A stretch of DNA of 64,000 bases from Pelagomonas calceolata. Lineage: Eukaryota. The stretch's first letter is position 1. Each line of letters opens with the position of its first letter. The notes below the pieces were generated by a model. That model was not told the origin of the DNA and did not search any database. It saw only the letters and a list, made by a program, of their open reading frames with translations. The stretch is taken from assembly GCA_918797485.1 (NCBI GenBank), contig CAKKNE010000004.1, positions 2,356,001 through 2,420,000 on the forward strand, read 5' to 3'. Both the position numbers and the translations under genes were made by a program. Below, in pieces: positions 21,926 through 63,249 of this stretch.

Positions 21926-24900
21926 TTAGTAGTCCCCTTCCTCGTCGTCGTCCTCCTCCGCATCCGAAGCCTCGGCCGCCTCGCGCTGCTTCTGCGCGAG
22001 CTCCGCCGGCAGCAGCCGCTCGTCGTCCGTCGGCTCGCGCCGCGGGACCGCGTCGAGGCACGGCGCGAAGGGCCCGCCGCACAAGATGTGAGCGAAGGCG
22101 TTCCGCCCGTCCGCGTCGACGAGGCAGACGCCCGACTCATTTTCATCATCATCAGCATCGCCCGCGAAATTCCGCGCCCAGGTCGTCGCGGTCCGTCCTG
22201 CAATAACGACGAGCGCTTTTCGTTCCGCCGCGGCCTCGGCGCAGGCCTCGGCCACATCCCTTGTACCCTGCTGGAAGGCCGAGCACTCGACGCTGCCGAC
22301 GGCGCCGGACCAGAAGATGGTCGAAGCGCGGTTCAGCGACGCCCGGAAAGATTCAATAGTCTGCTGGCCGATGTCGAGCGCGAAGACGTCGCGCGGCACG
22401 CCGTTCTTGGCGCCCGCGCCCTCTAGAGCAGCATCACTAATATCGCCGTCATACTCGAAGCCGCCCGCGTCGCCGTCCTCGTCGTCGTCCTCCTCCTCTT
22501 CCTCCTCCTCGGACTCGTCCTCTTCGTCATCGTCGTCTTCACTCACCTTGATCTGGCCCTTCTCGTCGACGTCGATATCACCGGTCGCGAAGTCGCAGGG
22601 TAAGCGTAACGCGACCTTGCGCCTGACAGCTTTGGCCATCAGCCGCCTGGCGACGGGGAAGACGGCCTCGTCAACAACTCCGCGGCCGACATCCACATTC
22701 AATGCCGCGAGGCACTCCCGCGCGCATAATCCTGAAAGCAGCACCTCGTCGGCGTGGTCGAGCAGGAAATCCACTAAACGGGCCTGCCGCAGGAAGCCGC
22801 ACCCCTGGACGCGGTCGTCGCCGACGACCGCGACGATGGGCCGCGGCCCACTGAGTAACCTGGAGACGGTCGCCGTATCTAAATGGGCGTTCAATCCTAG
22901 ACTCCGCGGCAGCGTGCAAAGTTGTAATGAACGCGCGTCCGCGTCGTGCATCCGTTCGACGTTGTATGTTGGCATGAAGGCGTTCAGCGAGTCCTGCACT
23001 AAGATATCGGCGAGCTCTGTTAAACGATAGCCCGCGTCGTTCTCCCGGAAGGCGTTTTCACATGCTTCAGCGGCCTCGGCGTCGTCGGCGTCGGCCCAGT
23101 AGGGGAGCGCCGGCGCGTCCTCGTCGACGACGATCTCGCGATCGATGACCGTGCACAGCGCCGGCCCGGAGTTCCGCGCTTCCAGGATGAACAAAGGCGT
23201 CGCGTCGTCCTCGTCCTCATCAGTCATTTTCTCCAGGATGGCTTTGGCTCGTGCAATATCTCCGACGAAGCGCGGCGCCCAGTCGGGGCCGGCCGCGTGG
23301 ATGAGCGGCTCCACCAAGGATTTCGTCGACCCCTCGGCGAGCTCCGTCACTATCAATACAGCCTTGGCCGCCGTGAGCGTCTCGAGCGTTTTCGCGACGC
23401 GCTGGAAGGCCTCCGGGAGGTCGTCCTCGTCTATATCTTCATCCACAGAAACGTCGAGGTCGGCCTGGAGGAGCACGACCTTCCCATCGACGTCCTCCGG
23501 CCGCGCCGCCTGGATGGAGGCGATGTCCTCGGCCCGCTGGGCGATGGCGTCGTGGACCGCGTTCGGCCGCCGCGCGGGCGGCGCCGGGAAGGTGGCCGCC
23601 GTCGCGTCGTCCGGGGCGTCCTCTTCATCTGGAGAGGGCGGCCCTATCATATCAGCCAGCAACCGCTTGACCGACGCGCAGGCCGCCGCGCGATACGCGT
23701 CCTGGCCCTCTCCAGTCACGCACGCGGCGCCGAAGTCCTCGAGGCCCTCCTCTCTTGCTAAATCCTGGACGACCTTGGGTCCGTCCACATACTTCATCTG
23801 GGCCGAGTCCCAGACCTTGGGCGGCGGGAGCGCCGCGACGGCGTCCGACGCGGCTATCGATGCCTCCAACGCACCATTCAGCGCGTCCGGGTCCTCGCCG
23901 AGCGCCGCGGGCGGCTTCGTATCCTCCAGAGCCGCGACGGCCTCGCAGGTCGTGAGCGCGAAGGCGGCCTTCTCGATTACTCCATCGAGGTGCGGCTTCA
24001 GGGCGTCGATAGCGCAGTCCTCGTCGGCCGTGGTGGAGCAGGACGCCAACAACGACGTGAACCTCATTTTCAATGAGAGGATGCGCCGTTCGCGCGGGTC
24101 GGCGGGCGGCGCCGGCTTTCGAGGCGGCGCGCCCGTGGCCAGAGTGTCGTCCTCCTCGTCCTCCTCCTCTTCTTCCTCTTCTTCCTCGTCCTCCTCTTCA
24201 TCGTCGTCGGAACCCTTCTCTCTCGTAGCAACAGTGAGCGCCTCGTCCTCGGGGGCCTCGGGAATGGAAATCGACGCGATCAGCGCCTCGATGGCGTCTA
24301 TATCACCGTCCCACTCATCCGGATCCGGCTTTGCCGCTTCTTTGCGCTTCCGGTACTTCTCGCGCGCGGCACCCAAACCCCACGTCGGGTCGATGGGCGG
24401 GACCGGCGGCATCCAGTCGGGCAGGCCCAGGGCCTCGGGGTCCCAGTCCTCCGGGACGGGCGGCGGCGGAGCTACTACGTCCTGGTCGGCTTTGTGTCCG
24501 AACACGTCGACCTCGCGCGGCTCGAGTCGACGTGCTGGAAGCGGCGCGGCCTCTTCTACCGCGGGGGCCGGCCCGGGCGCCGGCGCCGGCGCGCAGGCCT
24601 CTTCTTCGGTTATCTCTTCCTCCGGCGCCTCGATCTCCTTCTTGGCGACGCGCGCGTCCTTTCTCAATTCCTCGAAGGCGGCCCACCGATCAGGCGTGAA
24701 CACGAGGCCTCGACAAGCGTTCCGCGCCTCGAGCTTTGCCTTGTGAGACGCGTTCCGCGCCCTCTCGGCACCGGCGGGAGACAGATCAATATCCCACAAC
24801 ACCTCATACAAAATCTCTCTGCAAATATCCGGCCCGACGTGCTTCTCAAGAATCGCATCAACATGGTCGCGCATGTGCGGCTTGTCCTCGGGCGGCTGCT

Positions 24901-26566
24901 GGTAGCCTTGTAGGGAGATGCCCTGGCGCTTCTTGCACTTCTTGCCCTTCTTCGCGTTACTGAGTTTTATGAGACCCGTAATCTCCGCTTTAGGACGCAC
25001 CTTGAGCTGCCACTCTTCGACAAAACAGCCCGGCACCCGCGACTTGAACGCGAAGCGACAAATAGTAGAACAACCAGGTAATATGGAACCACTTGGAGTC
25101 ATGCACTGAAAGAAGCAGTCTTTGTTCGTCGCAAAGACCTTGTCGTCCATGGGCGTGCCGTCCTTGTACTTGGGACCGCGCTCGACCCAGAGCTCGTCGT
25201 CCGGGGCCCGGTCCGGACCTTTCGAGTTGAGCCGCCACTCGAAGAACATGACCTTGTCACTCGTATTTTTCAGCGTCACCGAATTCTTGCCGGCTTTGCC
25301 TGAATGGGTTGCTTCCAAGTGCAGCAAAGCATTCCCGACGACCTCGAGTCTTGGCAAAGGCTTGACCACTGGTTCTACCACTTCTGGCTCTTCCTCTACT
25401 ATCGTAGGGGGCTCGCTGACGACATTTCTGGCATTGAGGACGTCCTCGGAAGCGTCCGCGGCCCACCGGAATAGGTCCGTACCGACGACCGCCAATTCCG
25501 TCGCGTCGTCACCGGAGCCAACCAAGTGGGGCTGCAGCGTCTTCAGGCCCTTCTCCCACTGCTTCTTGCGCTTCAGCATGTAGGGGTCCGACCGCCAGTC
25601 CTTCTTTTCTCCCAAAGAGCGTGTTGTCAAGCCCGCGGCCGAACCAGGTAATTTCGGCCTCCTGATCTGTTGAGGGGCTTTCTCGCCCTTCTTCAGAGGA
25701 CAATACAAGCCCGAAAATAAATTCCCGACGCGCACCATGCGCTGCCCTTCGCCCCGCAGGTTCATCTCCCAGTACGACTCGCCCGCGCTTTCCTCTTGCG
25801 GAATGGAGGCCTGGATGATCTGGAAGTTCTCGGACTGCTCCCGATAATCTTCGCAGGACTTCATCATGAGCACTTCGTCCGCAGGTTTGCCCTGTTTTTT
25901 GGCAAAAGTTGCGGTGAGTCGCCGCCAGTCCTTTTGCTGCTCCTTCCACCGCTTGAGAGCTCTCGCTTCCCTCGCACCTCCAAAGGTGTCCTCGGCGTCG
26001 GGGATGAAGGTCGAGTCGTCCCGGGCAGCCGTTTCCTGGAATTGAATGATTTCGACCTCGGCCGCCTTCGCTTTGAGCGCATCCACATAAGACTCGTCGG
26101 TCGTCAAATCCCCCGCCGAAAAGGCCTCCACAGGAAAAACGTCGGACGGCGTCCGCGCGCGCGAGGACGCCGGCGTGTCGGGTTTTCCGTCGTCGCCGTA
26201 CTTGCAGTAGACCTCGTGCTCGACGAACTTGTCGGCCTCGCCGAGCACACTTCGCTCGATGACGCCCGCGTTCCTTGGTAGGCGTCTCAGACCCTTGAGT
26301 CGTGCCGGCGAGGCCACGTTGCTCATGCGATTGCGGTCCAGCAGGTCGTCCTCTCTCGGTTTTCGGGCGACGAGCACCGTCTTCTTGGGCCGGTACTTCT
26401 CATTTTGGCGTCTTACGGTCACGGACTTCTTCCTAGTGGGGCTCGGCACGAAGGTCTGGAACATCGCAGCGGGGGCCGGGGCCGCGGCCGCGCCGGGCGC
26501 CGGGCCCGGGGCCGCCGCAACTCCCTCGGTCTCCACCGGCAGCGCGTCGGGTGCCGTGTCCTCCAT
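21926..26566 (-). CDS. MYCBPAP: MYCBP-associated protein-like N-terminal half fused to a degenerate phosphoglycerate kinase-like domain
   Basis: GSILPG...FAFKSRVPGCFVEEWQL (MYCBPAP-like). C-terminal DVDGKVVLLQADLDV, LPCDF, LDIGQQT...ASTIFWSGAVGSVECSAFQQGT (PGK-like). Confidence 0.7.
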   Translation of the reverse strand: MEDTAPDALPVETEGVAAAPGPAPGAAAAPAPAAMFQTFVPSPTRKKSVTVRRQNEKYRPKKTVLVARKPREDDLLDRNRMSNVASPARLKGLRRLPRNAGVIERSVLGEADKFVEHEVYCKYGDDGKPDTPASSRARTPSDVFPVEAFSAGDLTTDESYVDALKAKAAEVEIIQFQETAARDDSTFIPDAEDTFGGAREARALKRWKEQQKDWRRLTATFAKKQGKPADEVLMMKSCEDYREQSENFQIIQASIPQEESAGESYWEMNLRGEGQRMVRVGNLFSGLYCPLKKGEKAPQQIRRPKLPGSAAGLTTRSLGEKKDWRSDPYMLKRKKQWEKGLKTLQPHLVGSGDDATELAVVGTDLFRWAADASEDVLNARNVVSEPPTIVEEEPEVVEPVVKPLPRLEVVGNALLHLEATHSGKAGKNSVTLKNTSDKVMFFEWRLNSKGPDRAPDDELWVERGPKYKDGTPMDDKVFATNKDCFFQCMTPSGSILPGCSTICRFAFKSRVPGCFVEEWQLKVRPKAEITGLIKLSNAKKGKKCKKRQGISLQGYQQPPEDKPHMRDHVDAILEKHVGPDICREILYEVLWDIDLSPAGAERARNASHKAKLEARNACRGLVFTPDRWAAFEELRKDARVAKKEIEAPEEEITEEEACAPAPAPGPAPAVEEAAPLPARRLEPREVDVFGHKADQDVVAPPPPVPEDWDPEALGLPDWMPPVPPIDPTWGLGAAREKYRKRKEAAKPDPDEWDGDIDAIEALIASISIPEAPEDEALTVATREKGSDDDEEEDEEEEEEEEEDEEDDTLATGAPPRKPAPPADPRERRILSLKMRFTSLLASCSTTADEDCAIDALKPHLDGVIEKAAFALTTCEAVAALEDTKPPAALGEDPDALNGALEASIAASDAVAALPPPKVWDSAQMKYVDGPKVVQDLAREEGLEDFGAACVTGEGQDAYRAAACASVKRLLADMIGPPSPDEEDAPDDATAATFPAPPARRPNAVHDAIAQRAEDIASIQAARPEDVDGKVVLLQADLDVSVDEDIDEDDLPEAFQRVAKTLETLTAAKAVLIVTELAEGSTKSLVEPLIHAAGPDWAPRFVGDIARAKAILEKMTDEDEDDATPLFILEARNSGPALCTVIDREIVVDEDAPALPYWADADDAEAAEACENAFRENDAGYRLTELADILVQDSLNAFMPTYNVERMHDADARSLQLCTLPRSLGLNAHLDTATVSRLLSGPRPIVAVVGDDRVQGCGFLRQARLVDFLLDHADEVLLSGLCARECLAALNVDVGRGVVDEAVFPVARRLMAKAVRRKVALRLPCDFATGDIDVDEKGQIKVSEDDDDEEDESEEEEEEEDDDEDGDAGGFEYDGDISDAALEGAGAKNGVPRDVFALDIGQQTIESFRASLNRASTIFWSGAVGSVECSAFQQGTRDVAEACAEAAAERKALVVIAGRTATTWARNFAGDADDDENESGVCLVDADGRNAFAHILCGGPFAPCLDAVPRREPTDDERLLPAELAQKQREAAEASDAEEDDDEEGDY

Positions 26567-26813
26567 GCTGGGCAGCTCGCTCTACGCTCGGGCTGCTCCG
26601 GGCTACTCTATGCTATGGGCTGCCTCACAAAGGCCTTGGCGCCGGTTCTTCCGCGGCGGGCAGCTCGCGCTGCTCCGTGAGCACTTGACAACGCCTCGTT
26701 CCGCCACCGATGGCTGCCTCGCGGCCGCGCGGACGGCGTTTTACGCTCAGCGCTGCTTGTTTTGCGTGATAATGTAAGCTGTAGCTTGTAGAATGGAGAG
26801 GGGGGGGGTCGTA

Positions 26814-28420
26814 CTACACACTACTACCATTACTCGTCGCCGCCCGCTCGCGCAGCGCCGCACGCCACGCGTTGAAGCCCAATTTCTGGCTCCTGCGCGC
26901 GCTCGAATAGTTCATGGGCGGGGCGCCCGGGCGACGCATCTCCGTGACATAGTCCAGGAGCATCGGGATCCACCACTTGAAGACGCCCGTCCGCGACCCG
27001 GGGAGCGCGTGAAAGTGGAGGCAGTCCCGGGCGTGCAGGTCCGTGCGGGCCGTCACGAGCGGCCCGACGTCGTACAGGGTCGCGCCTTCAACCTTCGGCA
27101 GAAGCTCCTCCGCGACCATGGCCTCGAAGTCGAGGAATTTGCGCCAGAAATACGTGTCCTTGAGCGCTCTGTATTCGGGACTGCCTCGATTCTGGGGGTC
27201 ATCAGCGGCCCGCGACGCGACCGCCTCCTCGACGGCCTCGATTTTTTCCGGGGTGCTCGGCCCGGCCAGGTACGTCTCCCGGCAGCCGTAGACGGGACGG
27301 TAGATACCGCGAAACAGGAACGTCGTAGCGCCGGTGCCGTTCGCGAGCTTTTCCGCGAGAACCTGAACAGCGTGCGCCATGGCCCCGGGCTTACCCTGGT
27401 GCGCGCCGGTGTTGGCCTGTGTGGAAATCAACCAGTGTGTCAGGCACTCAGTCTTCCCGGCGATGACGTGGTCGAATGCGCCGTAAATTTGATTTCCACA
27501 CAGGTTTTGGCCACCACCACATCCCACTTCGGCAGTAATGATAATGCCCAGTGCGCCCGGTCGACGACGTCGTCGCGGCAGGCCTGCTTCCCGCCTCCAC
27601 GCCCGTGGCAGCGTGGGCTACCCCTGTCGCCGCACTTGTCGAGAACGGCCAGACCCTGCGCCGCGAGCGCGGTGCAGGTCGCGTTCGGGAGGATGGCGTC
27701 GTCGCCCCAGAGGTAGTCGTCGCGCAGAAAGGCCACTCGTAGCGAAGTGTCGCAGGCGTCCCCGCGCGTCATCGCGAACTTTTTCTTTTTGGGGTCGCCA
27801 GGGAAGGGTATACCCATTTTTTTGGTGGCGCGAAGGCGCGTGACGAGCGCGTCGTAGAAGCTTTGTGACGTCGAGTCGCCGACGACGAGGAGCCGCCGGA
27901 CGCGCGCCTCTGCGAAGCGCGCGCAGAGCTGCTCCGGTGTAACGAGGTCCGCGGGCGGCGTCATCGCACAGATCGCGCAGGTCGCGCGCCAGCGCCAGGC
28001 GAGCGCGTCGCGCGTCCGATTCCACTCGGCCTGGGTCCCCAGGCGCCAGTTCCAACGCTCCATCCAACCGTCCTCGCGCGGTATCGCACTCTCCCACAGG
28101 CCGGCGCCGAAGCCACCCTCGCGGTCGTACGCGCAGCCGCGGCGCGTCGCCGGGCACGTGATATTGACCGGTATTGGCGTCGGTCGGTGCGGCGCCTGCG
28201 GCGGTGGCTGCTGCGTGTGCTTTGCGTCAATGGTCTGCTGCCGCAGCCGCGCGAGTTGTTCTTTGAAATCGCCGCGCGCTCCCGCTGGTGGCTTGTAGGT
28301 GTGCTGCCTCTGCCGCGCGCGCCAGCGGTCCACGTCTCGCTGCCGCATCGGCCGGGCCGGCCGGCGGCTCGCTTCGTCCGCGCTACCGCAGGCGAGGACG
28401 ACTGCCAGCGCCAGACGCAT
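26814..28420 (-). CDS. PC-esterase/trichome-birefringence-like SGNH O-acyltransferase; exons 28420-27512 and 27416-26814
   Basis: Signal peptide, VVGDST, DVVV|ANTGAH restored by splicing out the introner, DCLHF (DxxH). Spliced length 1512 nt, in frame. Confidence 0.8.
27417..27511 (-). mobile_element. Introner element forming a GC-AG intron
   Basis: Perfect inverted ends cctgtgtggaaatcaa / ttgatttccacacagg; TSD gccaaaac vs gccaacac (7/8). Confidence 0.9.
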
Positions 28421-53107: not shown

Positions 53108-56100
53108 TTAACTAGCGCCGCTCGCGATGCCCGCGAAACTCGTCGGGCCCTTCGCCGGCGCCTTGCCCGCGCCCGATCGTGAGGAGGGAAAGCCCTGCGA
53201 CGACGCGTCGAGGCCGAAGAGCGACGAGAGGCTGACGGCCGTCTTCGCCGCCTTGGCCGCGTGCGACTTGGCCGAGGGCGCGCCGGCGGAGTGCGACCGA
53301 TCTAACGCCGCGAAGAAGGAGCCGCATCGCCCGAGCAAAGTGTCCTCGGCCTGCTGCGACACGCCGGTCCCCAGGCGCGGCTTCTTCGCGGCCGGCAGCC
53401 AGGCCGCTTGCGAGTCTGAGGCGGATCTGATGAGTGATGGCGCGCGATCCAAGGAGGAAGGCAGCTCGCCCGACCGCTGCGACGACACCGATCTAGATGA
53501 TTGCGTCCGCGAGAGCATGGACAGGATGAGCTGCGAGTCCTCGTCGGCATCCAAGAGAGCGGCGCCGCCCTGCGACGCCTCGCCGTTCGCCTCCCTTTCT
53601 GCTTTTTCCCGCGCGGCCTTCTCGTCGAGCACGCGGCGCATCTTGGCTCTTCTAGCCCACTGTCTTGACTTAATCTTGATGGCAACCTCGTCCTCCTCGG
53701 AATCCGATCCAGCCTTAACAGCTTCGGCCTCGTCCTCGGACTCGGACTCGCTCTCGGAGATGAGTGGCTCCTGCTTCCTCCTCAATCTATCTCCCAAGTG
53801 GCGGTTCTTGAGCTCCTGGGAGATCAAAGCAGCTAGCCCGCGCTCCTCGTCGCCCTCGTCGTCGCCGTCCTCCTCCTCCTCATCATCCGAACCGGCTCTG
53901 AGTTTGCGGATCTCCTCGTCATCCGAATCCTCCAGTCCCAACCTTTTGGCCTCCTTCCTTGCGGACGCGTCCATACCAACAAGATCATCGATCCGGAACG
54001 CGCCGCCGCGCGCGTCCTGGCCCCCGAAACCGTCTCGCACCCGCCGCAACATCTGGGCCATCTCCTCGCGCTCCCGTTTGCGCTCCTCCTTGGCCCGCTG
54101 CTGCTCCGCGCCTTCTTCGTCACCTTCGCCATCACTCAATTCGTCGACGACGGCCTCGAGGTCATCTTCCGTGATCTTGACGTCCTCCTGCTCCTCCTGG
54201 TCCTGCTTCGGCTTGGAGACCCCGAACCCGAAGTCCCCGAGGCCCATCTGGGCCTGTCCCTCCTCGTCGCTTTCCTCGGCCTCCCCTTCGATGCCGTGCG
54301 CGGTTTTTTGTTTGGCCCTCTTCGCGTCGGCCTCGAGCATCGCCTTGTAGGCGGCGTTCCGGTCCTTCTTGGGTTGGTCTTGGTCCTCTTCAATATCCAT
54401 GTCCTCGATGCGCGGCGCCGCGTCGTCATCATTGTCGGCGCCTTCGGCCGGCGCGGCGACGGCGACAGGTTCGGCCGCCTTGTTGGGCGAGTCTTCGACG
54501 GGCGCCTGGTCTTCGGCCGCCTGGGCCGCCGTGACGCCGTCCGCCGCCTCGTCTTCCGCCGCTGGAGCCAGGTCCTCGGCGAGCGCCGTGGCCGACGCGG
54601 CCGGCGCCATCTCCGAGTCCTCGGCCGCCTGCTCCGCGGACACGCCGTCCGCCGCCTCCGCGGGCACATCTGCCGCCGGCGCGAGGTCCTCGGCGAGCGC
54701 CGTGGCCGACGGCGCCGGCTCCGGCGAGGGAGAAGACCACGCCTCGGGCGACTCCTCCGGCACCGTCGACAAGCGCCGCTCGGCATCTAAACAAGCCTGG
54801 ATCGCGTCCTGGGCCGCGGCCCGATCCATCGCTAAGGCGTCCTCGGCGTCCGGAACAAACAATTCCTCCTCGCGCGCGTCGATCTCCGCGAAGCGCCGGC
54901 CCGCGGCCCGCAGCTTCTGTTCTAATTCCCTTTCTTCCCTATCTCTACGCTCCGCTTCCCGCGCTTCGACCACTCGTTGGGCATCTAACGCCTCCAAACG
55001 TCTCACGTAGTCATCGGCCGAGATGTCTTCCACGGACGCCTGCTCGGCGTACTTGACCATGCCCGCTCTGGCCGCTTTCGCTCGTAATTTATCACGCAAA
55101 GCTCTACGACCGCCGGCTCGCTTCGTCCTAGCTCGTTTCAGAGCCTCGACCGTCGTGCTCTTGGAAGGAGACAGGGACTCGCGCCGCGCCTTCTTCGCCG
55201 GCGACGGCGCGCCCACGATCTCGAGCTCGACGTCGGAGTCGTCATCAGAAGACTCCTCCTTCATGAGCTTCGCGAGCGTCGCCCGCGCCGCGAGCTCCTC
55301 TTTACGAGCATCTTCCTCGAAGCGCTGCTTGATCGACGCCGCCAAGGCTTCTCGTTTCGCCTCGGCCTCCTGGTCCGCGGCCGCCTCCTCCGCGGCGATG
55401 GCCTCCTCGATGGCCGCGGCGCGTTTTGCCGCCTCGAGCTGGGCCTCGGTCTCGGCGACCTCCTCGGGGAGCTTTTCTTGCGGCTTGTCTTCCGTCTCGC
55501 AGAGCTGGGCGTACTCGGCGGCGTGGGCCTCCGGATCGAACGCCGGCGCGTCGGCCGCTTCCACCGACTTACGCTTCTTCGTCGACTTGCGCTTCTTGCA
55601 CTTGATCATAGGAGCTTCATCTTTATACCGCCGCTTGTCTTCCTCTGACAAAGCCTTCCAGAGCACTCCTAACCTTTTCGTCGCCTCGGCGTTGCGCTTG
55701 CCCCCCGACAGCTCGGCGAAGGCCTCGTCACCGTCGACCTCCGCGCGCACCTCGCTGCGCTTGAGTTTTGAGAAGTACAAATACGGGTTCATCGGGCGCT
55801 CCTCCGTGTCGTCCTCGGCTACGACGGGAGCCTCCTCCTCCTCCTCGTCCTCGACCAGGTCGTCAAAGCCCAGGCGCCGCGCCTCGGACGGCGGCGCCTC
55901 GTCGTCGTCGCTCTCCGAGGACTCCTGGGGCGCCGCCTGCTGGGCCAATGCTTCCACAATAGCGGCCTTGACGAGGGCCTTGCGCGCGCCCTTGACCTTG
56001 ATGCCGCCGAAGGCCGCCTTCAATTCATTGGTAATCGTCTTGACGGTCACGGTCTGCAAATCGGTTTCTCGCGAGACCCGCGCGGCGACCCAGCGCCGGA

Positions 56101-56440
56101 GCTCGTCGTCGGCCGGCTCCGTCGCCGCCGCGATCTTCGGCGACTGCACGGCGACGGGCGACGGCGCCTTGGGCGGCGGCGATTTGGGGGGCGGCGTCGG
56201 CGCCTTCGGGACCGGCGACCAGCCCTCGGCGCGCGGCGGCGAGGTCGCCGTCCTGGGCGGCGACACCGGCGACGGCGCCGACCAGGCGTCCAGGGACTCG
56301 GGCGCGCCCCAGGCGTCCTGGGATTGGTCGGGATTGAACTCGAGCGCGCTCTCCTCGGCGATGTCGCACGCTTGGGAGGCGGGAACCAGCTGCGTCGGCG
56401 CGCACTCGCCCTCGATGTCGTCCTGGGAGGTCCAGTCCAT
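53108..56440 (-). CDS. Acidic nuclear protein with DEK-C-like, HMG-box and Mrc1/Claspin-like regions
   Basis: DLQTVTVKTITNELKAAFG (DEK-C-like); RPMNPYLYFSK...LGVLWKALSEEDKRRY (HMG box); IEGEAEESDEE...GLG (MRC1-like); SQ/TQ sites. Confidence 0.75.
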   Translation of the reverse strand: MDWTSQDDIEGECAPTQLVPASQACDIAEESALEFNPDQSQDAWGAPESLDAWSAPSPVSPPRTATSPPRAEGWSPVPKAPTPPPKSPPPKAPSPVAVQSPKIAAATEPADDELRRWVAARVSRETDLQTVTVKTITNELKAAFGGIKVKGARKALVKAAIVEALAQQAAPQESSESDDDEAPPSEARRLGFDDLVEDEEEEEAPVVAEDDTEERPMNPYLYFSKLKRSEVRAEVDGDEAFAELSGGKRNAEATKRLGVLWKALSEEDKRRYKDEAPMIKCKKRKSTKKRKSVEAADAPAFDPEAHAAEYAQLCETEDKPQEKLPEEVAETEAQLEAAKRAAAIEEAIAAEEAAADQEAEAKREALAASIKQRFEEDARKEELAARATLAKLMKEESSDDDSDVELEIVGAPSPAKKARRESLSPSKSTTVEALKRARTKRAGGRRALRDKLRAKAARAGMVKYAEQASVEDISADDYVRRLEALDAQRVVEAREAERRDREERELEQKLRAAGRRFAEIDAREEELFVPDAEDALAMDRAAAQDAIQACLDAERRLSTVPEESPEAWSSPSPEPAPSATALAEDLAPAADVPAEAADGVSAEQAAEDSEMAPAASATALAEDLAPAAEDEAADGVTAAQAAEDQAPVEDSPNKAAEPVAVAAPAEGADNDDDAAPRIEDMDIEEDQDQPKKDRNAAYKAMLEADAKRAKQKTAHGIEGEAEESDEEGQAQMGLGDFGFGVSKPKQDQEEQEDVKITEDDLEAVVDELSDGEGDEEGAEQQRAKEERKREREEMAQMLRRVRDGFGGQDARGGAFRIDDLVGMDASARKEAKRLGLEDSDDEEIRKLRAGSDDEEEEDGDDEGDEERGLAALISQELKNRHLGDRLRRKQEPLISESESESEDEAEAVKAGSDSEEDEVAIKIKSRQWARRAKMRRVLDEKAAREKAEREANGEASQGGAALLDADEDSQLILSMLSRTQSSRSVSSQRSGELPSSLDRAPSLIRSASDSQAAWLPAAKKPRLGTGVSQQAEDTLLGRCGSFFAALDRSHSAGAPSAKSHAAKAAKTAVSLSSLFGLDASSQGFPSSRSGAGKAPAKGPTSFAGIASGAS
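54510..54712 (-). repeat. Intragenic tandem duplication (about 36 codons x2)
   Basis: SATALAEDLAPAADVPAEAADGVSAEQAAED / SATALAEDLAPAAEDEAADGVTAAQAAED. Confidence 0.85.
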
Positions 56441-56968
56441 CGTTTGTACTGCGCTTGAGTTGCGTGCGCGGCGTTTATGGCGCGAGCGTCGCGCTTGGAG
56501 CGTGCGCGGCTCTGTGAAGCGGCGCAGTGATTTACGCGCCAACTGCGTATCGCGCGCCAAACCTCTTGCACCCGCAGTGACAACGGTTGTACAGGAAGCC
56601 GCGAGTGAGCGCGCTTGTTGCCTGCTTGCTCACAGAGCGTGTTTGCAGCGGCTCAGTTTGATTTCAGCCGCTTGCTCTCCTAGTGTGGCTCTCACGCTAG
56701 GTCTTCGAGCACGACTCGCTCGCAGCCTGATCCGCACTCGCCCACGACTCCTCCGACGGCTGCGGCGAGAGCTACCGGAAGGCCGGCTCGCGGACGAGGC
56801 GGTGGCGCTAGCCTCCGTCCCCAGCGCTAAATCGGCTTAGCCCGTGGGCGTACGGCTGCCTCGCGTCGGTCGGGCGAAGCCCAGGTCTCAACGAATCACC
56901 ACCGGGCTGCCTCTCGACGCGGAGCCCGAGCGACCACCCAGAGAGGACACAGCACCCCCAAGCCAAGG

Positions 56969-57655
56969 ATGGCGGCCGTCGGCGCCGACGCCTTGGAGCA
57001 GTTCGCCGACTACGAGGCCTACCTCGACAGCCAAGTCTCCGAGACGGACATGTACTACTTGGAGGACGAGGAGATGGCCCGGCAATTGGTCGAGCTCGGC
57101 TACCGTGGCTCCGGAGACACGTTAAAAAGGGACGAGTTCGAGGCGAGGCGTCGAGCGCTGAGAGAACGAGGCACGCAGCGCGCGAACGTGCCCAAGGCAT
57201 TGGCTTCCCATGGAAAGGATCTATCAGGGAACCCGTTCCTGGCGGCGCTGGCGTCGCGAGAAGCCCTCGTAAGGAACGGCAAGTTGACCTCGATCATTTT
57301 CGTGCGGACGACGAACGCGAAGGGTCAACAGGTCTCGGCCTACATCGACTACGCGCATAGGTTAAAAACGGAGGACTTCGGCCCCTACTTCGCCGGCGAG
57401 AAGAAGCTCATGCCCAAGCCGACAGATTTATCCTACTACAACTGGGAGACGCAGGCCTCGACGCACAACTCCACACCCAATTTCCAGGTCGTCGCGGACC
57501 AGGAGGGCCTCCTCTTCAAAAACAAGCGGGACCGGAAGGTGGTCAACGTCGACCCGGCGGCGCCTCCCGGAGATAATTCCTCAAGGAACGAGCTCGAGTG
57601 CGAGGACTACCTCCAGGTGACGATTTTCGACCACCTGACGCGGCGCAAGAACTAA
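56969..57655 (+). CDS. CFAP299: Cilia- and flagella-associated protein 299 (C4orf22/DUF4464)
   Basis: F..YE.YLDSQ....D.YYLEDE..ARQLVELGYRG, IDYAHRLK, DLSYYNW, GLLFKNKRDRK, PGDNS.R, FDH.TRRK. Confidence 0.92.
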   Translation: MAAVGADALEQFADYEAYLDSQVSETDMYYLEDEEMARQLVELGYRGSGDTLKRDEFEARRRALRERGTQRANVPKALASHGKDLSGNPFLAALASREALVRNGKLTSIIFVRTTNAKGQQVSAYIDYAHRLKTEDFGPYFAGEKKLMPKPTDLSYYNWETQASTHNSTPNFQVVADQEGLLFKNKRDRKVVNVDPAAPPGDNSSRNELECEDYLQVTIFDHLTRRKN

Positions 57656-57680
57656 AACGGGGGATCGCATAACATGGGAT

Positions 57681-60600
57681 TCACTTAGACAGGATGCGCC
57701 GCGCCGCGCCGGCCGGCACGCCCACCTCGACGAGGTCCTCGACGGAGACGTGAGCCAGCGCGTCGTCGTCGATCTCGTTCTCGATGAACAGCTCGAGCAG
57801 ACCCGAGAGACCCTCGTTCGCCAGTGCGACGGCGACCAGAGCGTATCCATCAGGCGCGACGTCGCCGGTCGGCGCGACGTCGGGCGTGACCCTTCCGAGC
57901 CCGTCGGCGACAATTTGCTGAAGATTGCGCAGATTCTGGTTCTCGTCGCGCAGGCGCGATATCTCATTCGCCTGGCTAGCGATGTTCTCCTTGTCTGCGA
58001 TCCTTTCGCGGAGCTGGCGCGCGCGCTCGACAGCCCGGCGTGCTTGTTCCTCGGCGTCGCGTAGCTCGGCCGCCAGTCCTCCCGCCGCGTCGCCCGGCGC
58101 CGCAGCCGTGCTCGACGCGGCCAGCGCCCGTGCCAACTCCGCGTCCTCGGCCTCGCGTCGCCGCGCCGCATCGGCGTCCTCGGCGGCGAGCGAGGCCGCA
58201 AGCACCGCGTCGATGTCCTCTTCCGGCTCGTCAGCGACCGCCGGCGCCGGCGCCGAGGCCTCGCGCGCGCTCAGCTCCAGCGCGGCGAGCAGTTGCTTGT
58301 CGCCGTCGTCGCCGCGGCTCTCAGCGCACGACGCGTCCAGGCCGCGCTCTAGATCGGCCGGCGCCACGGCTGCATCGGCCGCGAGCGACGCAGCAGGCCG
58401 CTTCGACTCGGCCAGCGCCCGTTCCATCTCCGCGTCTTCTGCCGCGCGGCGCCGCGCCGCGTCGGCCTCGCTTTCCGCCATTGACGCCGCCACGGCCGCA
58501 CCTAAATCCTCGGTCGTCTCGGCCGGCTCGGCCGGCGGCTCCTCTTTCGACTCCGCCACGCCTCCCACTCCTCTTTCGACTAACTCGTCACGCGCCCGCC
58601 GCTCTAGCTTTTCCTCGTCCTTCACCTCGTCGGACTCGTAGCCTACTCCGTGTAACCTCGCGAGCCGCTCGCGCTCGAAGCGTCTGAGTTCACGTTCCTG
58701 TCGCTTCAGCTCGTCGCGTTCGTAGGCTTCGTAGGCTTCCCGCGATGCCGCCAGCGCCATGAGCTCCGAGTTATCGTTGACCTCCCGGAAGGTCCGCGCC
58801 CGGTCGGCGCGTCGTTGCTCGTCTTTTAGACTATTCGCCACGACGTCCTGTTCGAACTTGTCCGCGAGGGCGGCGCGCGCGCGCGCCTCGGCGAGGCTAG
58901 CTTCCTGTGCGCGCCGTAGCGCTTCCATCTCGCTTAATGGTTCAGGTTCGCGCCGCGGCGGCCGTGGCGGTCTCGCCGGAGCCGCCGCGTCGTCGACCGC
59001 GCGCCGCTCGTCGATCTCGGGCGCCGGCGCGCGGTTGGCAGCGCCCGCCGCGCGGTCGACGCTGTTGACGGCCTCTTCGACGTCGAGCATTTCCTTCGCG
59101 ATCCCGTCGGGATGGTCGTGCGCGACGGCGCGCATGGGATCGTCGGCAGCCGTCGGCGACCACTTGATCTTGAAGAGGATCTTGTCCTTGACCGTCTGAT
59201 GAGATACGTGCCAGTACTCGGGGCAGTCGAAGAAGTCGTGGACTCGTCGCCGATGCTGAGCCTCGAAGACGAACTTCTTCTCCTCGCCGACTGAGGCCCT
59301 CTCCGCGAAGCGCACGGCCTCGCGAAAATTCTCCCGGAGTGACGCGTCGGCGTCGCCCGCGCCGTCGTCCGGGAGCAGCCGTAACAAGTCCGGGAAGTCC
59401 TTGCGCCGCTGTTTCTTAAACGTCAAGACGAGCTTCTTCGGCTCCGTCCCGCGCGACACGTGCCGCACCGGCGCGTAAAGTTCGTCGGCATCTAACACAC
59501 TATGCAGGCGCTTTCGCACCTCGCGAGTAAGCTGTAGCTCCCGGCGGGCATCAGCGAAGCGCGGGTCCTTGTAGAGGTCCGCGAACATCTTCGCGGCGCG
59601 CAACGCGTCGTTAAAGCTACTGACGCGCTGCTCCCGCACGAGCCGCGCCGCCGTCTCCGGCTCCTCGGCCCTCGACAGGTCTAGCACGCTGCCCACGAGC
59701 TTCGCCTCCGCCCTCCGCGCTAGAGGGTCATCGACGTCGAATTGTAACTGCTTGATGCGCTTCTCGACGGCATTGATGATTGTTTCGTAGCGGTAGAACA
59801 TCCCTCTCATGATATCATGGTTTCCGTTGACGAGCTTGCCCCGCGGCGCCGCTGCACCGCTTGGAATCCAGCGTGGCTGCTGCTGCGACGACGACCTTGA
59901 GCACCGCATCGCCGCGTCGAAGGCGTTCTGGAGCGCGTCGCCGCGCCCGGTCGTCCGCACATCCAACGCCAGCTCGTGACACCGCGCCCAGCGTTCTGCC
60001 GCGTCCGAAGCTACCCCATGTCGATCAACGGCCAGCAACCAATTGATGGCCGACCGAGGAACCAATTTCCCGCGATCCAAAAGGATGCGCAGACCTGTGT
60101 GGAAATCAACCAGTGAGCTATCGCCGTCGCGTCGATGGCGTGGGGCGTCTGAAGTTTTGATTTCACACAGGCGCAGACTGCTAATCATCGCCGTCGCCGA
60201 GGGGGAGAACGCCCTGGTGCTCGGCGAGAAGACCGTCGTCGCCTTCAACGCGGCATCGGCCGCGGCCCACGCGCGTAGTTCGTCATCGGAGCGCGGGTCG
60301 CGCGCAGCGTATGCCGCAGGCGCCGCCTCTTTCGCGAGCAAGACAATCTGATAAAACGCGCCGCGGGCCAGCGCGAAATAAAGCTCGTCTCCGTCGTTGT
60401 CGCCGCCGGCCATTTTATCGGGTTCGGGGCGCTCGCCCTGGTAGCTGAAGACTGCGACGTCACATAGGTGGCGCCACGCCGGCCGGCCCGCTACGGCCAT
60501 TAATTTACGTACGTCGCCCTTGTTGCAGCACGGCGACCGGAAGCAGAGCACGGGTCCGACGTAAGCTCCATTACCTAACAACACCTCGCCTTCCGCCAAC

Positions 60601-63249
60601 TCTATGTTTACGTCGGCGGCGCAGACGCCCTGAGCGATCCAGAGGTCGCTCTCTCCGCTTGCGTTCACGCCACAAGGGATGTTCATTTTGGCCTTGGCCG
60701 CCACGAGAGCGCGGCTGATGGCTTTCAGCACTTTCAGATCTTCGGGCGTGCCGTCGTTGCTAAAGGGTGATCGCCAGCGCCGCTCCAGTAATCGCGCGCG
60801 GTCGTCGGCGTCGTCCTCGTCCCCGATGAACGTCTCCGGCAGGATCTCGATCTCCCGACACGCAGCTTCGAGCTTCGCGAGGTGATCGGGCGTCGCGCCC
60901 TCGTCCAGAATCCCATCTGAGCCGTCGGCCTTCGTCCACAGCAGCGTGCCCTCGATGAACTTGTTCATCAACTCGTGGAGGAACCGCACGTCGCCGCCGG
61001 CGCGGTCGCGTTCGTCCATCAACATGTTGCTGATCACGATGATCGCCTGGCAGAACAACATGTTGCCCGCCTTCTTGATCTTCGCGGCGGCCTTGACCTC
61101 GAGGCAGCGGTGGCCTGCGCGGTATTAGCCCATGAGTGTACTCTCAACACACGCCATCGAGCAGACGCGATGGCGATTTGATTTCGATTTCTGCACAGGC
61201 CTTGCTTGAAGCTCCCTTAATCATCGAGGGTCGTAACAACAGCTGGACTCCGGTCAGCGTGGGGTCGATGACCAGCATACCCTTGCAAAGACCGATTCTA
61301 ATCTGACACGCCGTGACGCGCGTGCCCATCGCCCGCGAAACGAGGTCTGCCAGCCCCTGAGATATGACGCCACAACCGTCGGACCAGCAGTAGCCGGCTC
61401 GCCAGACGTCCGGGATGACACTTATTTGGTGCGGCGCCAGCGTCACCGTAGGGATGGTAGCCGTGAACGCTAACGAAACGCGGTGGCCGAGCTTCGAGTC
61501 CTTGACGCCTGTAAAGTCGCCGAGCGACTGCAGAAAGTTCTCGGCGGAATAGAAGCGGTCCAGCTCGTCGGCTTCAGGGCGCGTCCGGAGGAAATGAATA
61601 GTAGGGCTGATGCCCTTGTCGAAGAGGTAGTAGCAGTCCTCGTCGCAGCACTGAATCGGCGCGAGCTCGCCGCCGCGCTTCGTGAAGTGCTCGACGATCT
61701 CTCCCGCGTCGAATTTGATGCGCGAACTCACAAAGCGGTCTGCGGCCGCCAACTCAAAGTGCGTCGCCCTCGAGTGCCCACGGAACTCGATAGAATTTGG
61801 CACAAGAATGACCGTGCCCGTCTGCATGTCGTGGTCGAGCCGCGCCCGCAGGTTTGGCACCTGCACTCGTGCTTTTGCCGACGTATCTGCACCGCCCGAG
61901 AAGAGCGCGCGCTCGTTGGAAATCCGATGTCGCAGCGCGTCGTCCATTGCCGCTTCCGTAGCTCTCGAGAAGAGACGCAGAGCTTCGTCGGGCGATCTAG
62001 TATCTTTGCGCTCCTCAGCGAGCCGTCCGACGAGCGCCGCCAGAGGATCGCCGAGCGCGACGGCCGTGTGCCAGGACTCGAGCTGACCGCGCCGCCGGCG
62101 GTTCCAATTCTGTGCCACCGTGGTGACGACCTTGGTCGAGAACGCCCTTGCGACGTTTTCGCACGTGACCTGGTCCTTGAGCGGCTCGTTCTTGAGAAGT
62201 GCGGCTTCCAGCGCGAAGCGAATGCAGAACGGGAGTCCTTTCGATTTCGCGAGGCTTCGAAAGTCCTCGAGCAGTGCCGCGACGTTTAACGCGCGTAAAC
62301 CTTCCCTCCGCGGCGGGTCTAGCTTGACCAAGTCGAGCATTTTACAAGCCATGCGTTGGCCCTGGAAGACGGAGAGCTGCGCGCGCCTCTCGTCTAATTC
62401 CTGCTTAGCAGTCGCTCTCGACTCGTTGAGAGCACTCTGATACTCGGGGTTCTTGCTATTTGCGACGCACTCCTCCCATAATTTGCGGCTTGCTATATTC
62501 TGAAGGTTTTCTACTATAGGAGTCGCTTCGTAAGCGGTTGGCGCGGCCGGCGTCGCGATCGCAATCTCCGGCGCGGGCGGAGCGATGCGCCGGGCGCCGC
62601 CCACGCCATAGGGCCGCGAGCCGTACCTCGGGCACCGTCTACAGATAAAGGTGGGCTGCTTTAATGGTATCGGTGCGCCCTGGGCGTACATACCCTCGCC
62701 GAACGTCATGTTGTAGTGAGGCTCGCCGATGCCATTGCTGAACGGCGTCTCGAGGTCAGTCGCCGGCCGCCCGTAGCCGCACCGTTCGCATAGGCAAATG
62801 ACGACCGGCTCCGTCGTCGCGTGCCCGCCGAAGATCGCTCGATATAATCCGTCGTCGCCGGGTACTTCGAGTATTTTCGGTTTCGCGTAGCGCCGAACGT
62901 GAATAGCCGCGTCCTGCTCGTGCGCGTCCTCAGCCGGCGTGGGCTGCGGTTCGACGTCTCGCGCGGCGGCTATGTCCTCCCTAAGGTCCAAACGGCGACG
63001 TAGCGCCGGCTGCGCCGGCTGCGCTGCGGACCGCTGCTGCGGTCGCTGCGGCTCGTCGGCCGTGTTCGCAAACGCTCCTCCGCTTCGCGGTTTTTTCGCT
63101 TCAACGCGCGGCGCTTGCTGCTGCGCTCGCAGCGCCTGCGCGACTGCGGCCGCTGCGTCGAGGTCTAATGCATGATCAACACGACGCGGCTGCGGCGCCT
63201 CGTCGGCAGCAGCCAGCGGTCTGAATTTAGTAGGAGTCCTGCGCGGCAT
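57681..63249 (-). CDS. Cellular RNA-dependent RNA polymerase (RDR/QDE-1 family) with R3H-like, UIM-repeat and SAM tail; exons 63249-61206, 61114-60179, 60094-57681 (1797 aa)
   Basis: KLGHRVSLAFT, WSDGCGVIS, CQIRIGLCKGML, RPSMIK..|..LEV, RSPCCNKGDV, FSYQGERP..DKMAGGDNDGD. Spliced length 5394 nt, in frame. Confidence 0.9.
60095..60178 (-). mobile_element. Introner element forming an 84-nt GT-AG intron in RdRP
   Basis: Perfect 8-bp TSD gcgcagac at 60087-60094 and 60171-60178 flanking ctgtgtggaaatcaa...ttgatttcacacag. Confidence 0.92.
61115..61205 (-). mobile_element. Degenerate introner-derived GC-AG intron in RdRP
   Basis: Starts gcaaggc-ctgtgcagaaatcg, contains the cgccatcg motif, ends cgcag. 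Removal gives RPSMIKGASSHRCLEV, the usual RDR spacing. Confidence 0.75.

What the first reader, a model, noticed from the sequence alone, without database searches (positions are those of the whole stretch)
57681..63249. RNAi-type RdRP with R3H-like, multi-UIM and SAM tail: a possible ubiquitin-reading, polymerising RNA amplifier
Seen: two ORFs join via two introns into one 1797-aa RDR-family polymerase. After the core come an R3H-like motif (HRRRVHDFF...HVSH, ~59150-59340) and about eight UIM-like helices (e.g. EMEALRRAQEASLAE, DLGAAVAASMAE, EMERALAESK, QLLAALELSARE, DIDAVLAASLAA, ELARALAASS; ~58110-58935). A coiled coil and a terminal SAM domain follow (LANEGLSGLLELFIENEIDDDAL...EDLVEVGV.AGAARRIL, 57684-57845). 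The N-terminus has paired Cys motifs (CLCERC...CRRC). Known: the plant, fungal and nematode RDRs I know carry RRM or helicase add-ons, not UIM+SAM; UIMs bind ubiquitin; SAM domains oligomerise or bind RNA. Inference: an RdRP recruited to ubiquitinated chromatin, ribosomes or viral factories and assembled into condensates. I do not recall this architecture being described.
Basis: partly seen in the sequence, partly recalled or inferred. Interest (0 to 1): 0.85.

Follow-up and report, generated by a model that had tools for sequence, protein, structure and literature searches.

The report
RNA polymerase with ubiquitin-reading tail
A marine alga's RNA-silencing polymerase carries a tail of likely RNA-binding and ubiquitin-binding modules, and a related polymerase has picked up a different ubiquitin-binding tail, which suggests these enzymes likely choose their RNA templates by docking on ubiquitin-tagged complexes such as stalled ribosomes.

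Summary
The gene is real. RNA reads confirm both introns, giving one 1797-aa protein with a PF05183 RdRP core and an intact DxDGD motif (DNDGD). The UIM pattern is far above chance, and the tail is under purifying selection. Relatives form one small clade of mosaic paralogues. In one paralogue the same core is joined to an unrelated tail, a Pfam R3H plus a UBA domain, 96-100% identical to the end of a stand-alone gene whose R3H matches yeast Fap1. So 'RdRP + R3H + ubiquitin-binder' was assembled twice. None of 69 more distant RDRs showed such a tail, and no paper describing it turned up. Best reading (inferred): an RDR that docks on polyubiquitinated RNA-protein complexes, most likely stalled ribosomes, and copies their RNA into dsRNA. 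Ubiquitin binding, polymerase activity and the presence of Dicer/Argonaute are untested, and several relatives are broken. Verdict: a new variant of a known family; interest 0.7.

The parts
57681..63249 (-). RDR-family gene, three exons, 1797 aa
61206..63249 (-). exon 1 (low-complexity N-terminus, Cys-pair region, helical region, first half of the RdRP core)
61115..61205 (-). intron 1, 91 nt, GC..AG; part of it resembles a repeat found in many other transcripts; absent from the syntenic orthologue
60179..61114 (-). exon 2, holds the catalytic motif
60095..60178 (-). intron 2, 84 nt, in frame, terminal inverted repeat and 8-bp duplication (introner-like); absent from the syntenic orthologue
   Evidence: introners with 8-bp TSD described in PMC9860276 (passages)
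57681..60094 (-). exon 3 (end of core, R3H-like pair, UIM array, coiled coil, SAM)
62632..62790 (-). two CxxC pairs, aa 154-157 and 203-206; likely zinc site (inferred)
   Evidence: no Pfam family; low-confidence model
59868..61569 (-). RdRP core PF05183 (spans both introns)
60387..60401 (-). catalytic DxDGD motif, here DNDGD (aa 920-924)
59418..59546 (-).
   Evidence: Z 5.1, rmsd 1.8 to Fap1 745-795
59166..59345 (-). R3H-like unit 2 (RxxxH = RRRVH)
   Evidence: Z 5.8 KhpB/EloR; Z 4.0-4.8 to four entries titled R3H
58884..58931 (-). worn UIM-like helix (aa 1386); fits the pattern in P0003 and type-B paralogues
58392..58517 (-). tandem UIM-like pair 1, motifs at aa 1524 and 1550, 26 residues apart
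58257..58364 (-). UIM-like helices at aa 1575 (worn, Gly for Ala) and aa 1595
58101..58226 (-). tandem UIM-like pair 2, motifs at aa 1621 and 1647, 26 residues apart
57900..58079 (-). likely coiled coil (by eye; absent from type-B paralogues, shortened in P0003)
   Evidence: sequence; alignment
57684..57860 (-). SAM domain

Best explanation
This is a cellular RNA-dependent RNA polymerase of the RDR family whose tail likely docks it on polyubiquitinated RNA-protein complexes, most likely stalled ribosomes, where it would copy the trapped RNA into double-stranded RNA for silencing. Shown: one spliced, transcribed gene; a core with its three catalytic aspartates; two R3H-like folds; an array of UIM-pattern helices; a SAM domain; a second, independent fusion of the family's core to R3H + UBA. 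Inferred: the UIMs bind ubiquitin (about 0.7). The two 26-residue tandem pairs would favour K63-type chains, as the RAP80 pair does (about 0.4). The R3H pair would hold single-stranded RNA. SAM and coiled coil would cluster the enzyme and add avidity. The tagged complex is a stalled ribosome rather than chromatin or a viral factory (about 0.3 overall). The dsRNA feeds a Dicer/Argonaute pathway (not tested here).
For: One transcript and ORF. Core and tail also lie in one intron-free ORF in relatives such as P0001, P0003, P0008-10, P0032, P0036, P0041, P0241. Core aligns to plant RDRs and QDE-1 at both barrels. UIM pattern: 5 in the tail against a mean of 0.45 and a maximum of 4 in 10000 shuffles; 5 within 150 aa against 4 in 14743 aa of 33 other window ORFs. 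Motif Ser kept in all 11 aligned rows for 4 of 7 motifs. The sister orthologue has 7 tail motifs that fit. Ataxin-3 UIMs are the only UIM entry hit by the family profile, weakly (E 0.097). dN/dS against the orthologue is 0.42 for the UIM blocks, 0.37 SAM and 0.36 R3H pair, against 0.90 for the linker between them. Second fusion: 8 of 28 fetched proteins that span the type-B junction continue into Pfam R3H (46 bits) + UBA (30.8 bits), as does contig L004. That tail is 96-100% identical to a stand-alone gene (P0248, 56 members) whose R3H matches Fap1 of the FAP-80S complex (E 1.8e-4). A more distant member of the donor family ends R3H - UIM-pattern helix - SAM-like (P0255), so UBA and UIM+SAM are exchangeable ends there too. 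RAP80's UIM centres lie 37.5 A apart on one helix (PMC2735176, whole text), about 25 residues. In Arabidopsis, RDR6 activity starts at ribosome-stall sites (PMC8892269, passages).
Against: Pfam support for UIM is only at the cut-off, and the long ORF gave no UIM hit at E<=1. The looser pattern (Val allowed for Ala) was chosen after seeing the sequence. R3H has no Pfam hit and Z-scores under 6 that tie with SirA/TusA and Smr folds. The syntenic orthologue in L002/L003 has TAG at a conserved Trp codon just before the catalytic motif, and 7 of 9 listed cluster members end there. Five of 20 type-B proteins with the R3H-pair tail break off in unit 1, and P0050 lacks the UIM block. The gene evolves 4-7 times faster than its two neighbours (dN/dS 0.34 against 0.05 and 0.09; one pair, rough). 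The window's own tail shows no significant homology to the donor family, so the ribosome link comes from the paralogue's tail. No long read spans the gene; contigs break at 59006-59017 in 3 of 4 runs, and one run shows 5 read starts at 59485. No genome was held, so Dicer and Argonaute were not looked for.
Confidence: 0.5

Rival explanations
1. Chromatin reader: the UIM pairs bind ubiquitinated histones, as RAP80's do, and bring the RDR to transposon or repeat chromatin for RNA-directed silencing.
For: The tandem spacing resembles RAP80, a chromatin reader. Aureococcus has a DNMT5 methyltransferase (PMC3145265, passages). The genome carries introner-like repeats. SAM polymers organise chromatin in Polycomb proteins (recalled).
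Against: Both tails pair the ubiquitin-binder with R3H, and the captured R3H is of the Fap1 type; no chromatin-reader domain was found in any family member scanned.
Confidence: 0.15
2. Turnover signal: the UIMs or UBA serve the enzyme's own control (coupled mono-ubiquitination, or delivery to autophagy through ATG8), not template choice.
For: UIMs promote ubiquitination of their host protein (PMC2951365, abstract start). UIM-type binding to ATG8 in plants is recalled; related papers appeared only as listings.
Against: Five to seven motifs in fixed 25-26-residue spacing suit chain avidity more than a single degradation tag. R3H travels with the ubiquitin-binder in both fusions.
Confidence: 0.12
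3. Neutral shuffling: a redundant, recombination-prone paralogue family collects common small domains; the tails are tolerated passengers and many copies are decaying.
For: Nonsense codon in the orthologue, truncated type-B copies, mosaics of core and tail, a hypervariable x in DxDGD (N, L, Q, Y, H, G). An unrelated coiled-coil protein shares the linker and in one record the whole tail (P0012-14).
Against: dN/dS well under 1 in the R3H, UIM and SAM blocks but 0.9 in the linker. The tail type is kept across three paralogue types with about 40-50% core identity. Two unrelated captures give the same pair of functions.
Confidence: 0.13
4. Antiviral sensor: the enzyme is drawn to ubiquitin-rich giant-virus factories or viral RNPs, and its fast, mosaic evolution reflects an arms race.
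For: Fast evolution and mosaicism. About 2100 stored viral stretches carry a ubiquitin N-terminal motif, which shows only that ubiquitin is common in these viruses.
Against: No block has dN/dS above 1. No relative in viral contigs (0 of 96 candidates). No infection data examined.
Confidence: 0.1

Closest known systems
Cellular RDRs: Arabidopsis/maize RDR2, Neurospora QDE-1 (PF05183)
   Same: Two-barrel core with the DG.G, QIR, RxPC and GGDxDGD motifs aligned.
   Different: Divergent core (Pfam 97 + 73 bits), x = N, Cys-pair N-terminus and a C-terminal R3H-R3H-UIMn-SAM tail. None of 69 more distant RDRs showed R3H, UIM, UBA or SAM; they carry helicase, PH-like, DUF7752/7636 or nucleotidyltransferase add-ons, or none.
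Plant RDR6 with SGS3
   Same: Proposed job: copying RNA from stalled ribosomes inside condensates (PMC8892269 and PMC12535099, passages).
   Different: RDR6 needs a separate cofactor; here RNA-binding, clustering and ubiquitin-binding modules are fused to the polymerase. No ubiquitin reading by RDR6 appeared in the passages seen.
RAP80 / ataxin-3 / epsin tandem UIMs
   Same: UIM-pattern helices in pairs about 25-26 residues apart with helix-prone linkers; weak profile match to ataxin-3.
   Different: Sit on an RNA polymerase; several motifs are worn; chain preference untested.
Fap1 / NFX1-type R3H proteins and the algal R3H-UBA family (P0248, P0253, P0255)
   Same: Donor of the paralogue's second tail; R3H matches Fap1 726-814; look-alike R3H(+UBA) clusters in haptophytes and diatoms, scores 0.85 and 0.81, leads only.
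   Different: The window's own R3H pair is not detectably homologous to it by sequence. The donor's RING/U-box-like N-terminus and DFPAL motifs are recalled resemblances; Pfam gave no family there.

Membership tests
Eukaryotic RDR (PF05183) | Profile score above the curated cut-off | tested here: met
   97.1 and 73 bits against 23.8
Eukaryotic RDR (PF05183) | DxDGD metal-binding motif with three Asp | tested here: met
   DNDGD at aa 920, aligned to DLDGD of solved RDRs
Eukaryotic RDR (PF05183) | First-barrel motifs (DG.G, QIR, KG, LRPSM.K) | tested here: met
Eukaryotic RDR (PF05183) | RNA-templated polymerase activity and a role in small-RNA production | not testable with these tools
   needs an assay and small-RNA data
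RDR alpha / gamma subclades | DLDGD (alpha) or DFDGD (gamma) signature, recalled | tested here: inconclusive
   window has N; close relatives L, Q, Y, H, G; the tree had no named references
UIM | Pfam UIM / UIM_2 cut-off | tested here: inconclusive
   UIM_2 21.1 against 21 on the 150-aa block; single motifs at most 14.7 bits; UIM 7.8
UIM | Acidic patch - hydrophobic - xx - Ala - hydrophobic - xx - Ser pattern (recalled consensus) above chance | tested here: met
   4 strict and 5 loose hits, 0 of 10000 shuffles reach either; at most 1 per 150 aa in 33 other ORFs
UIM | Binds the ubiquitin Ile44 patch | not testable with these tools
   needs a binding assay
R3H | Pfam PF01424 score | tested here: not met
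   no family at E<=10 on 59121-59420 or at E<=1 on 59001-59660
R3H | R-x3-H motif on the helix | tested here: met
   RKRLH and RRRVH; His kept in all 11 rows for both units
R3H | Small alpha/beta fold, strand-helix-strand-strand | tested here: inconclusive
   model shows it twice, pLDDT 77; best Z 5.8 and 5.1 to R3H-bearing proteins but tied with SirA/Smr folds; Foldseek no hit
SAM | Pfam SAM cut-off | tested here: met
   SAM_2 21.8 against 20.5 when cut out; SAM_1 22.2 against 23
SAM | Head-to-tail polymerisation or RNA binding | not tested
   no job spent on it

The most novel reading that the evidence does not exclude
These algal RDRs hard-wire ribosome quality control to RNA silencing: they read K63-type polyubiquitin on stalled ribosomes through exchangeable ubiquitin-binding tails taken from a Fap1-like ribosome ligase family, and turn badly translated RNA into dsRNA. 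That would be the first template-selection code built into an RDR polypeptide, arrived at twice.
Probability: 0.25. Interest if true: 0.9.

Novelty: new variant of a known kind. Interest (0 to 1): 0.7.

Why it matters
How RDRs tell aberrant RNA from normal mRNA is an open question; a 2025 review calls the choice between RNA decay and siRNA production a long-standing gap and notes that ribosome-ubiquitinating factors have not been studied there (PMC12535099, passages). A natural RDR with built-in ubiquitin readers, assembled twice, turns one answer into a simple test: one tail, defined motifs, defined chains. It also points to an unstudied, fast-shuffling silencing family in an abundant group of ocean algae.

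Tried and rejected
Co-folding of UIM pair 2 with two copies of a viral ubiquitin: no verdict (median 0.32, runs 0.32/0.34/0.30, mark 0.34; three controls 0.00-0.01; alignments not used); counted neither way. Foldseek on the R3H model: no hit at E<=0.001. N-terminal model: pLDDT 44, search meaningless. ESM Atlas on the R3H pair: no usable hit. PDB sequence search with the tail: only an interleukin-11 match to the Pro-rich stretch (composition) and a weak Shank2 SAM. Common ancestry of the window's tail and the donor family: BLAST gave collinear but weak pieces (SAM E 0.011, R3H E 0.3, UIM E 12) and profile-profile gave nothing; not claimed. Viral origin: 0 of 96 candidate viral stretches confirmed; flanking genes are ordinary eukaryotic ones. 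Tail as a separate gene: rejected, no stop from exon 2 to the end, same fusion in relatives, contig overlaps of 30 bases across the break in run X1. Assembly chimera for the UBA fusion: unlikely, since the core and the donor share no residues upstream of the junction and 8 proteins plus one contig from another source show it; donor DNA was not seen. Stop-codon recoding in the sister orthologue: TAG at one site only, read as a nonsense change, not tested further. Own genome not held. Earlier findings: four look-ups, nothing. Literature: searches listed no title or abstract start describing an RDR with UIM, UBA, R3H or SAM; these were read as listings, the library lacks most subscription papers, and supplements (for example genome annotation tables of PMC9481584) were not opened and may list the domains.
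Full report
Gene model. Two minus-strand ORFs cover the finding. Stranded poly(A) reads from four runs of one sample skip 61205-61115 (25 reads) and 60178-60095 (21 reads), and contigs from four runs of four studies skip both. Intron 1 is GC..AG. Intron 2 is in frame, has inverted ends and an 8-bp duplication, like the introners with 8-bp TSDs described for Aureococcus (PMC9860276, passages). The spliced frame is 1797 aa. Depth is low (mostly 1-17) and thinnest at 58006-58256. One contig runs from 63386 to 59006; the next pieces overlap it by 30 bases in run X1, and the break falls where another transcript shares 53 nt. Read starts at 57674 mark the likely 3' end. No long read was available. 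The host is a pelagophyte-type marine alga by inference (GC about 63%, introners, marine holders); no tool named it, and the 84-91 nt introns are shorter than the 210 bp peak given for Pelagomonas calceolata (PMC9481584, passages).

Core. PF05183 scores 97 and 73 bits. Both barrels align to solved plant RDRs and QDE-1. The catalytic motif is DNDGD; all three aspartates are there. The variable position reads L, Q, Y, H or G in close relatives.

Tail. Residues about 1180-1305 fold as two strand-helix-strand-strand units (pLDDT 77), each with R-x3-H. Against 48161 chains the best matches are KhpB/EloR (Z 5.8, unit 2) and Fap1 745-795 (Z 5.1, rmsd 1.8, unit 1); four entries titled R3H follow at Z 4.0-4.8, but SirA/TusA and Smr folds tie, and Pfam gives nothing. 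I call them R3H-like. The UIM block reaches Pfam's UIM_2 cut-off by 0.1 bit; 2 of 9 single helices score 14-15 bits. A recalled UIM pattern finds 4 (strict) or 5 (Val allowed, chosen after seeing the sequence) motifs; 0 of 10000 shuffles reach either count, and 33 other window ORFs give 4 hits in 14743 aa. Spacings between successive late motifs are 26, 25, 20, 26 and 26 residues; RAP80's centres are 37.5 A apart on a continuous helix and select K63 chains (PMC2735176, whole text). SAM passes SAM_2 when cut out.

Family. Word-indexed searches gave 7 and 13 relatives; a full search of 1.84 billion representatives gave 726 hits, 150 listed. Three paralogue types appear: A (window), B (P0008) and C (P0062), with about 40-50% core identity. 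On a tree of 55 cores chosen from proteins with a DxDGD and enough flank, the 9 tailed ones form one clade (100/99), sister to 8 untailed RDRs; fragments and P0003 were left out. Of the 71 listed hits of 500 aa or more not scanned before, 2 are family members; 0 of the other 69 showed R3H, UIM, UBA or SAM (five proteins had families beyond the five shown), and none had more than 3 scattered pattern hits. This survey is limited: Pfam missed the UIMs on the window's own long ORF, and the library's gene calls break at introns. Members are mosaics: P0001 has an A core and B tail, P0041 a B core and A-type end, P0005 a B-like first R3H. Single mosaics from metagenomes may be assembly chimeras.

The key new observation. 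Type B exists with two tails that diverge at one point. Of 28 fetched proteins spanning it, 20 go on into the R3H-pair tail and 8 into Pfam R3H + UBA; contigs L004 and L005 show the two forms in DNA. The second tail is 96-100% identical to the C-terminal part of a stand-alone gene (P0248 and relatives). That gene's R3H matches Fap1 from the FAP-80S ribosome complex; its N-terminus looks RING/U-box-like and it has DFPAL motifs, both recalled resemblances that Pfam did not confirm. A more distant member, P0255, ends in R3H, one UIM-pattern helix and a SAM-like domain instead of UBA. The window's tail is not detectably homologous to this family. So two unrelated tails give the core the same two kinds of module, an R3H and a ubiquitin-binder. 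That is the best evidence that the helices are working UIMs.

Selection and decay. The syntenic orthologue (L002, L003; same HAD, CFAP299-like and claspin-like neighbours) lacks both introns and is 62% identical over 1794 columns. Pairwise dN/dS is 0.34 overall, 0.24 in the core, 0.36-0.42 in R3H, UIM and SAM blocks, 0.90 in the linker, and 0.05 and 0.09 in two neighbours (one pair, rough). It has a TAG in place of a Trp codon before the catalytic motif, and 7 of 9 listed members of its N-terminal cluster end there. Five type-B proteins stop inside R3H unit 1. The family is therefore constrained but dispensable in places.

Mechanism. Shown: transcript, core, modules, second fusion. Inferred: UIM pairs bind polyubiquitin, R3H units hold single-stranded RNA, SAM and coiled coil cluster the enzyme, and the core makes dsRNA from RNA in the tagged complex. 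Stalled ribosomes are the likeliest target because the captured R3H is Fap1-like and because plant RDR6 starts at stall sites (PMC8892269, passages; PMC12535099, passages). Chromatin reading, self-turnover, neutral shuffling and antiviral sensing are the rivals. Dicer and Argonaute were not looked for, as no genome was held; related stramenopiles have RdRP and AGO genes (PMC3145265, passages).

Novelty. It is a member of the RDR family by every sequence test made. The architecture was not found in print in six searches read as listings nor among earlier findings. Verdict: new variant of a known kind, confined so far to one small algal clade; interest 0.7, higher if ubiquitin-guided template choice is shown.

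Noticed in passing
L002/L003 7652-7654: Syntenic orthologue has a TAG at a Trp codon just before the catalytic motif, in two metagenome contigs and 7 of 9 listed cluster members, yet both halves still show dN/dS near 0.24: likely a recent loss and a natural null for experiments.
   Followed up: partly
window 57674-57679: The RDR gene and the CFAP299-like gene (56831-57655, +) are convergent; read starts of both transcripts pile up within six bases, so their 3' ends touch or overlap.
   Followed up: no
window 6561, 27416-27503, 60095-60178; L004, L005: Further copies of the introner-like end motif in the window; type-B paralogues carry such elements at other positions. Many reads from other transcripts match the two introns.
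   Followed up: partly
P0012, P0013, P0014: An unrelated coiled-coil protein shares the roughly 35-aa linker that follows R3H unit 2; in P0012 it is joined to the whole type-A UIM-SAM tail (one record, may be a chimera). The linker may be a recombination hot spot.
   Followed up: no
P0248, P0253, P0255: An undescribed-looking algal family: RING/U-box-like N-terminus and DFPAL motifs (recalled resemblances), Fap1-type R3H, then UBA or UIM+SAM. Possibly a ribosome-associated ubiquitin ligase.
   Followed up: partly
window 60398-60396 and relatives: The x of DxDGD is unusually variable within the family (N, L, Q, Y, H, G), while L dominates the other RDRs fetched.
   Followed up: no
window 21929-26581 (-): 1551-aa ORF joining a MYCBP-associated-protein domain and phosphoglycerate-kinase-like stretches.
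   Followed up: no
window 53111-56629 (-): Acidic 1173-aa ORF with DEK_C-like and HMG-box domains and a claspin/Mrc1-like end (the last by recall).
   Followed up: no
P0174, P0203; P0091, P0098, P0168, P0182, P0193: Distant RDRs fused to nucleotidyltransferase domains, or to DEAD, Upf1-like or DEAH helicases.
   Followed up: no
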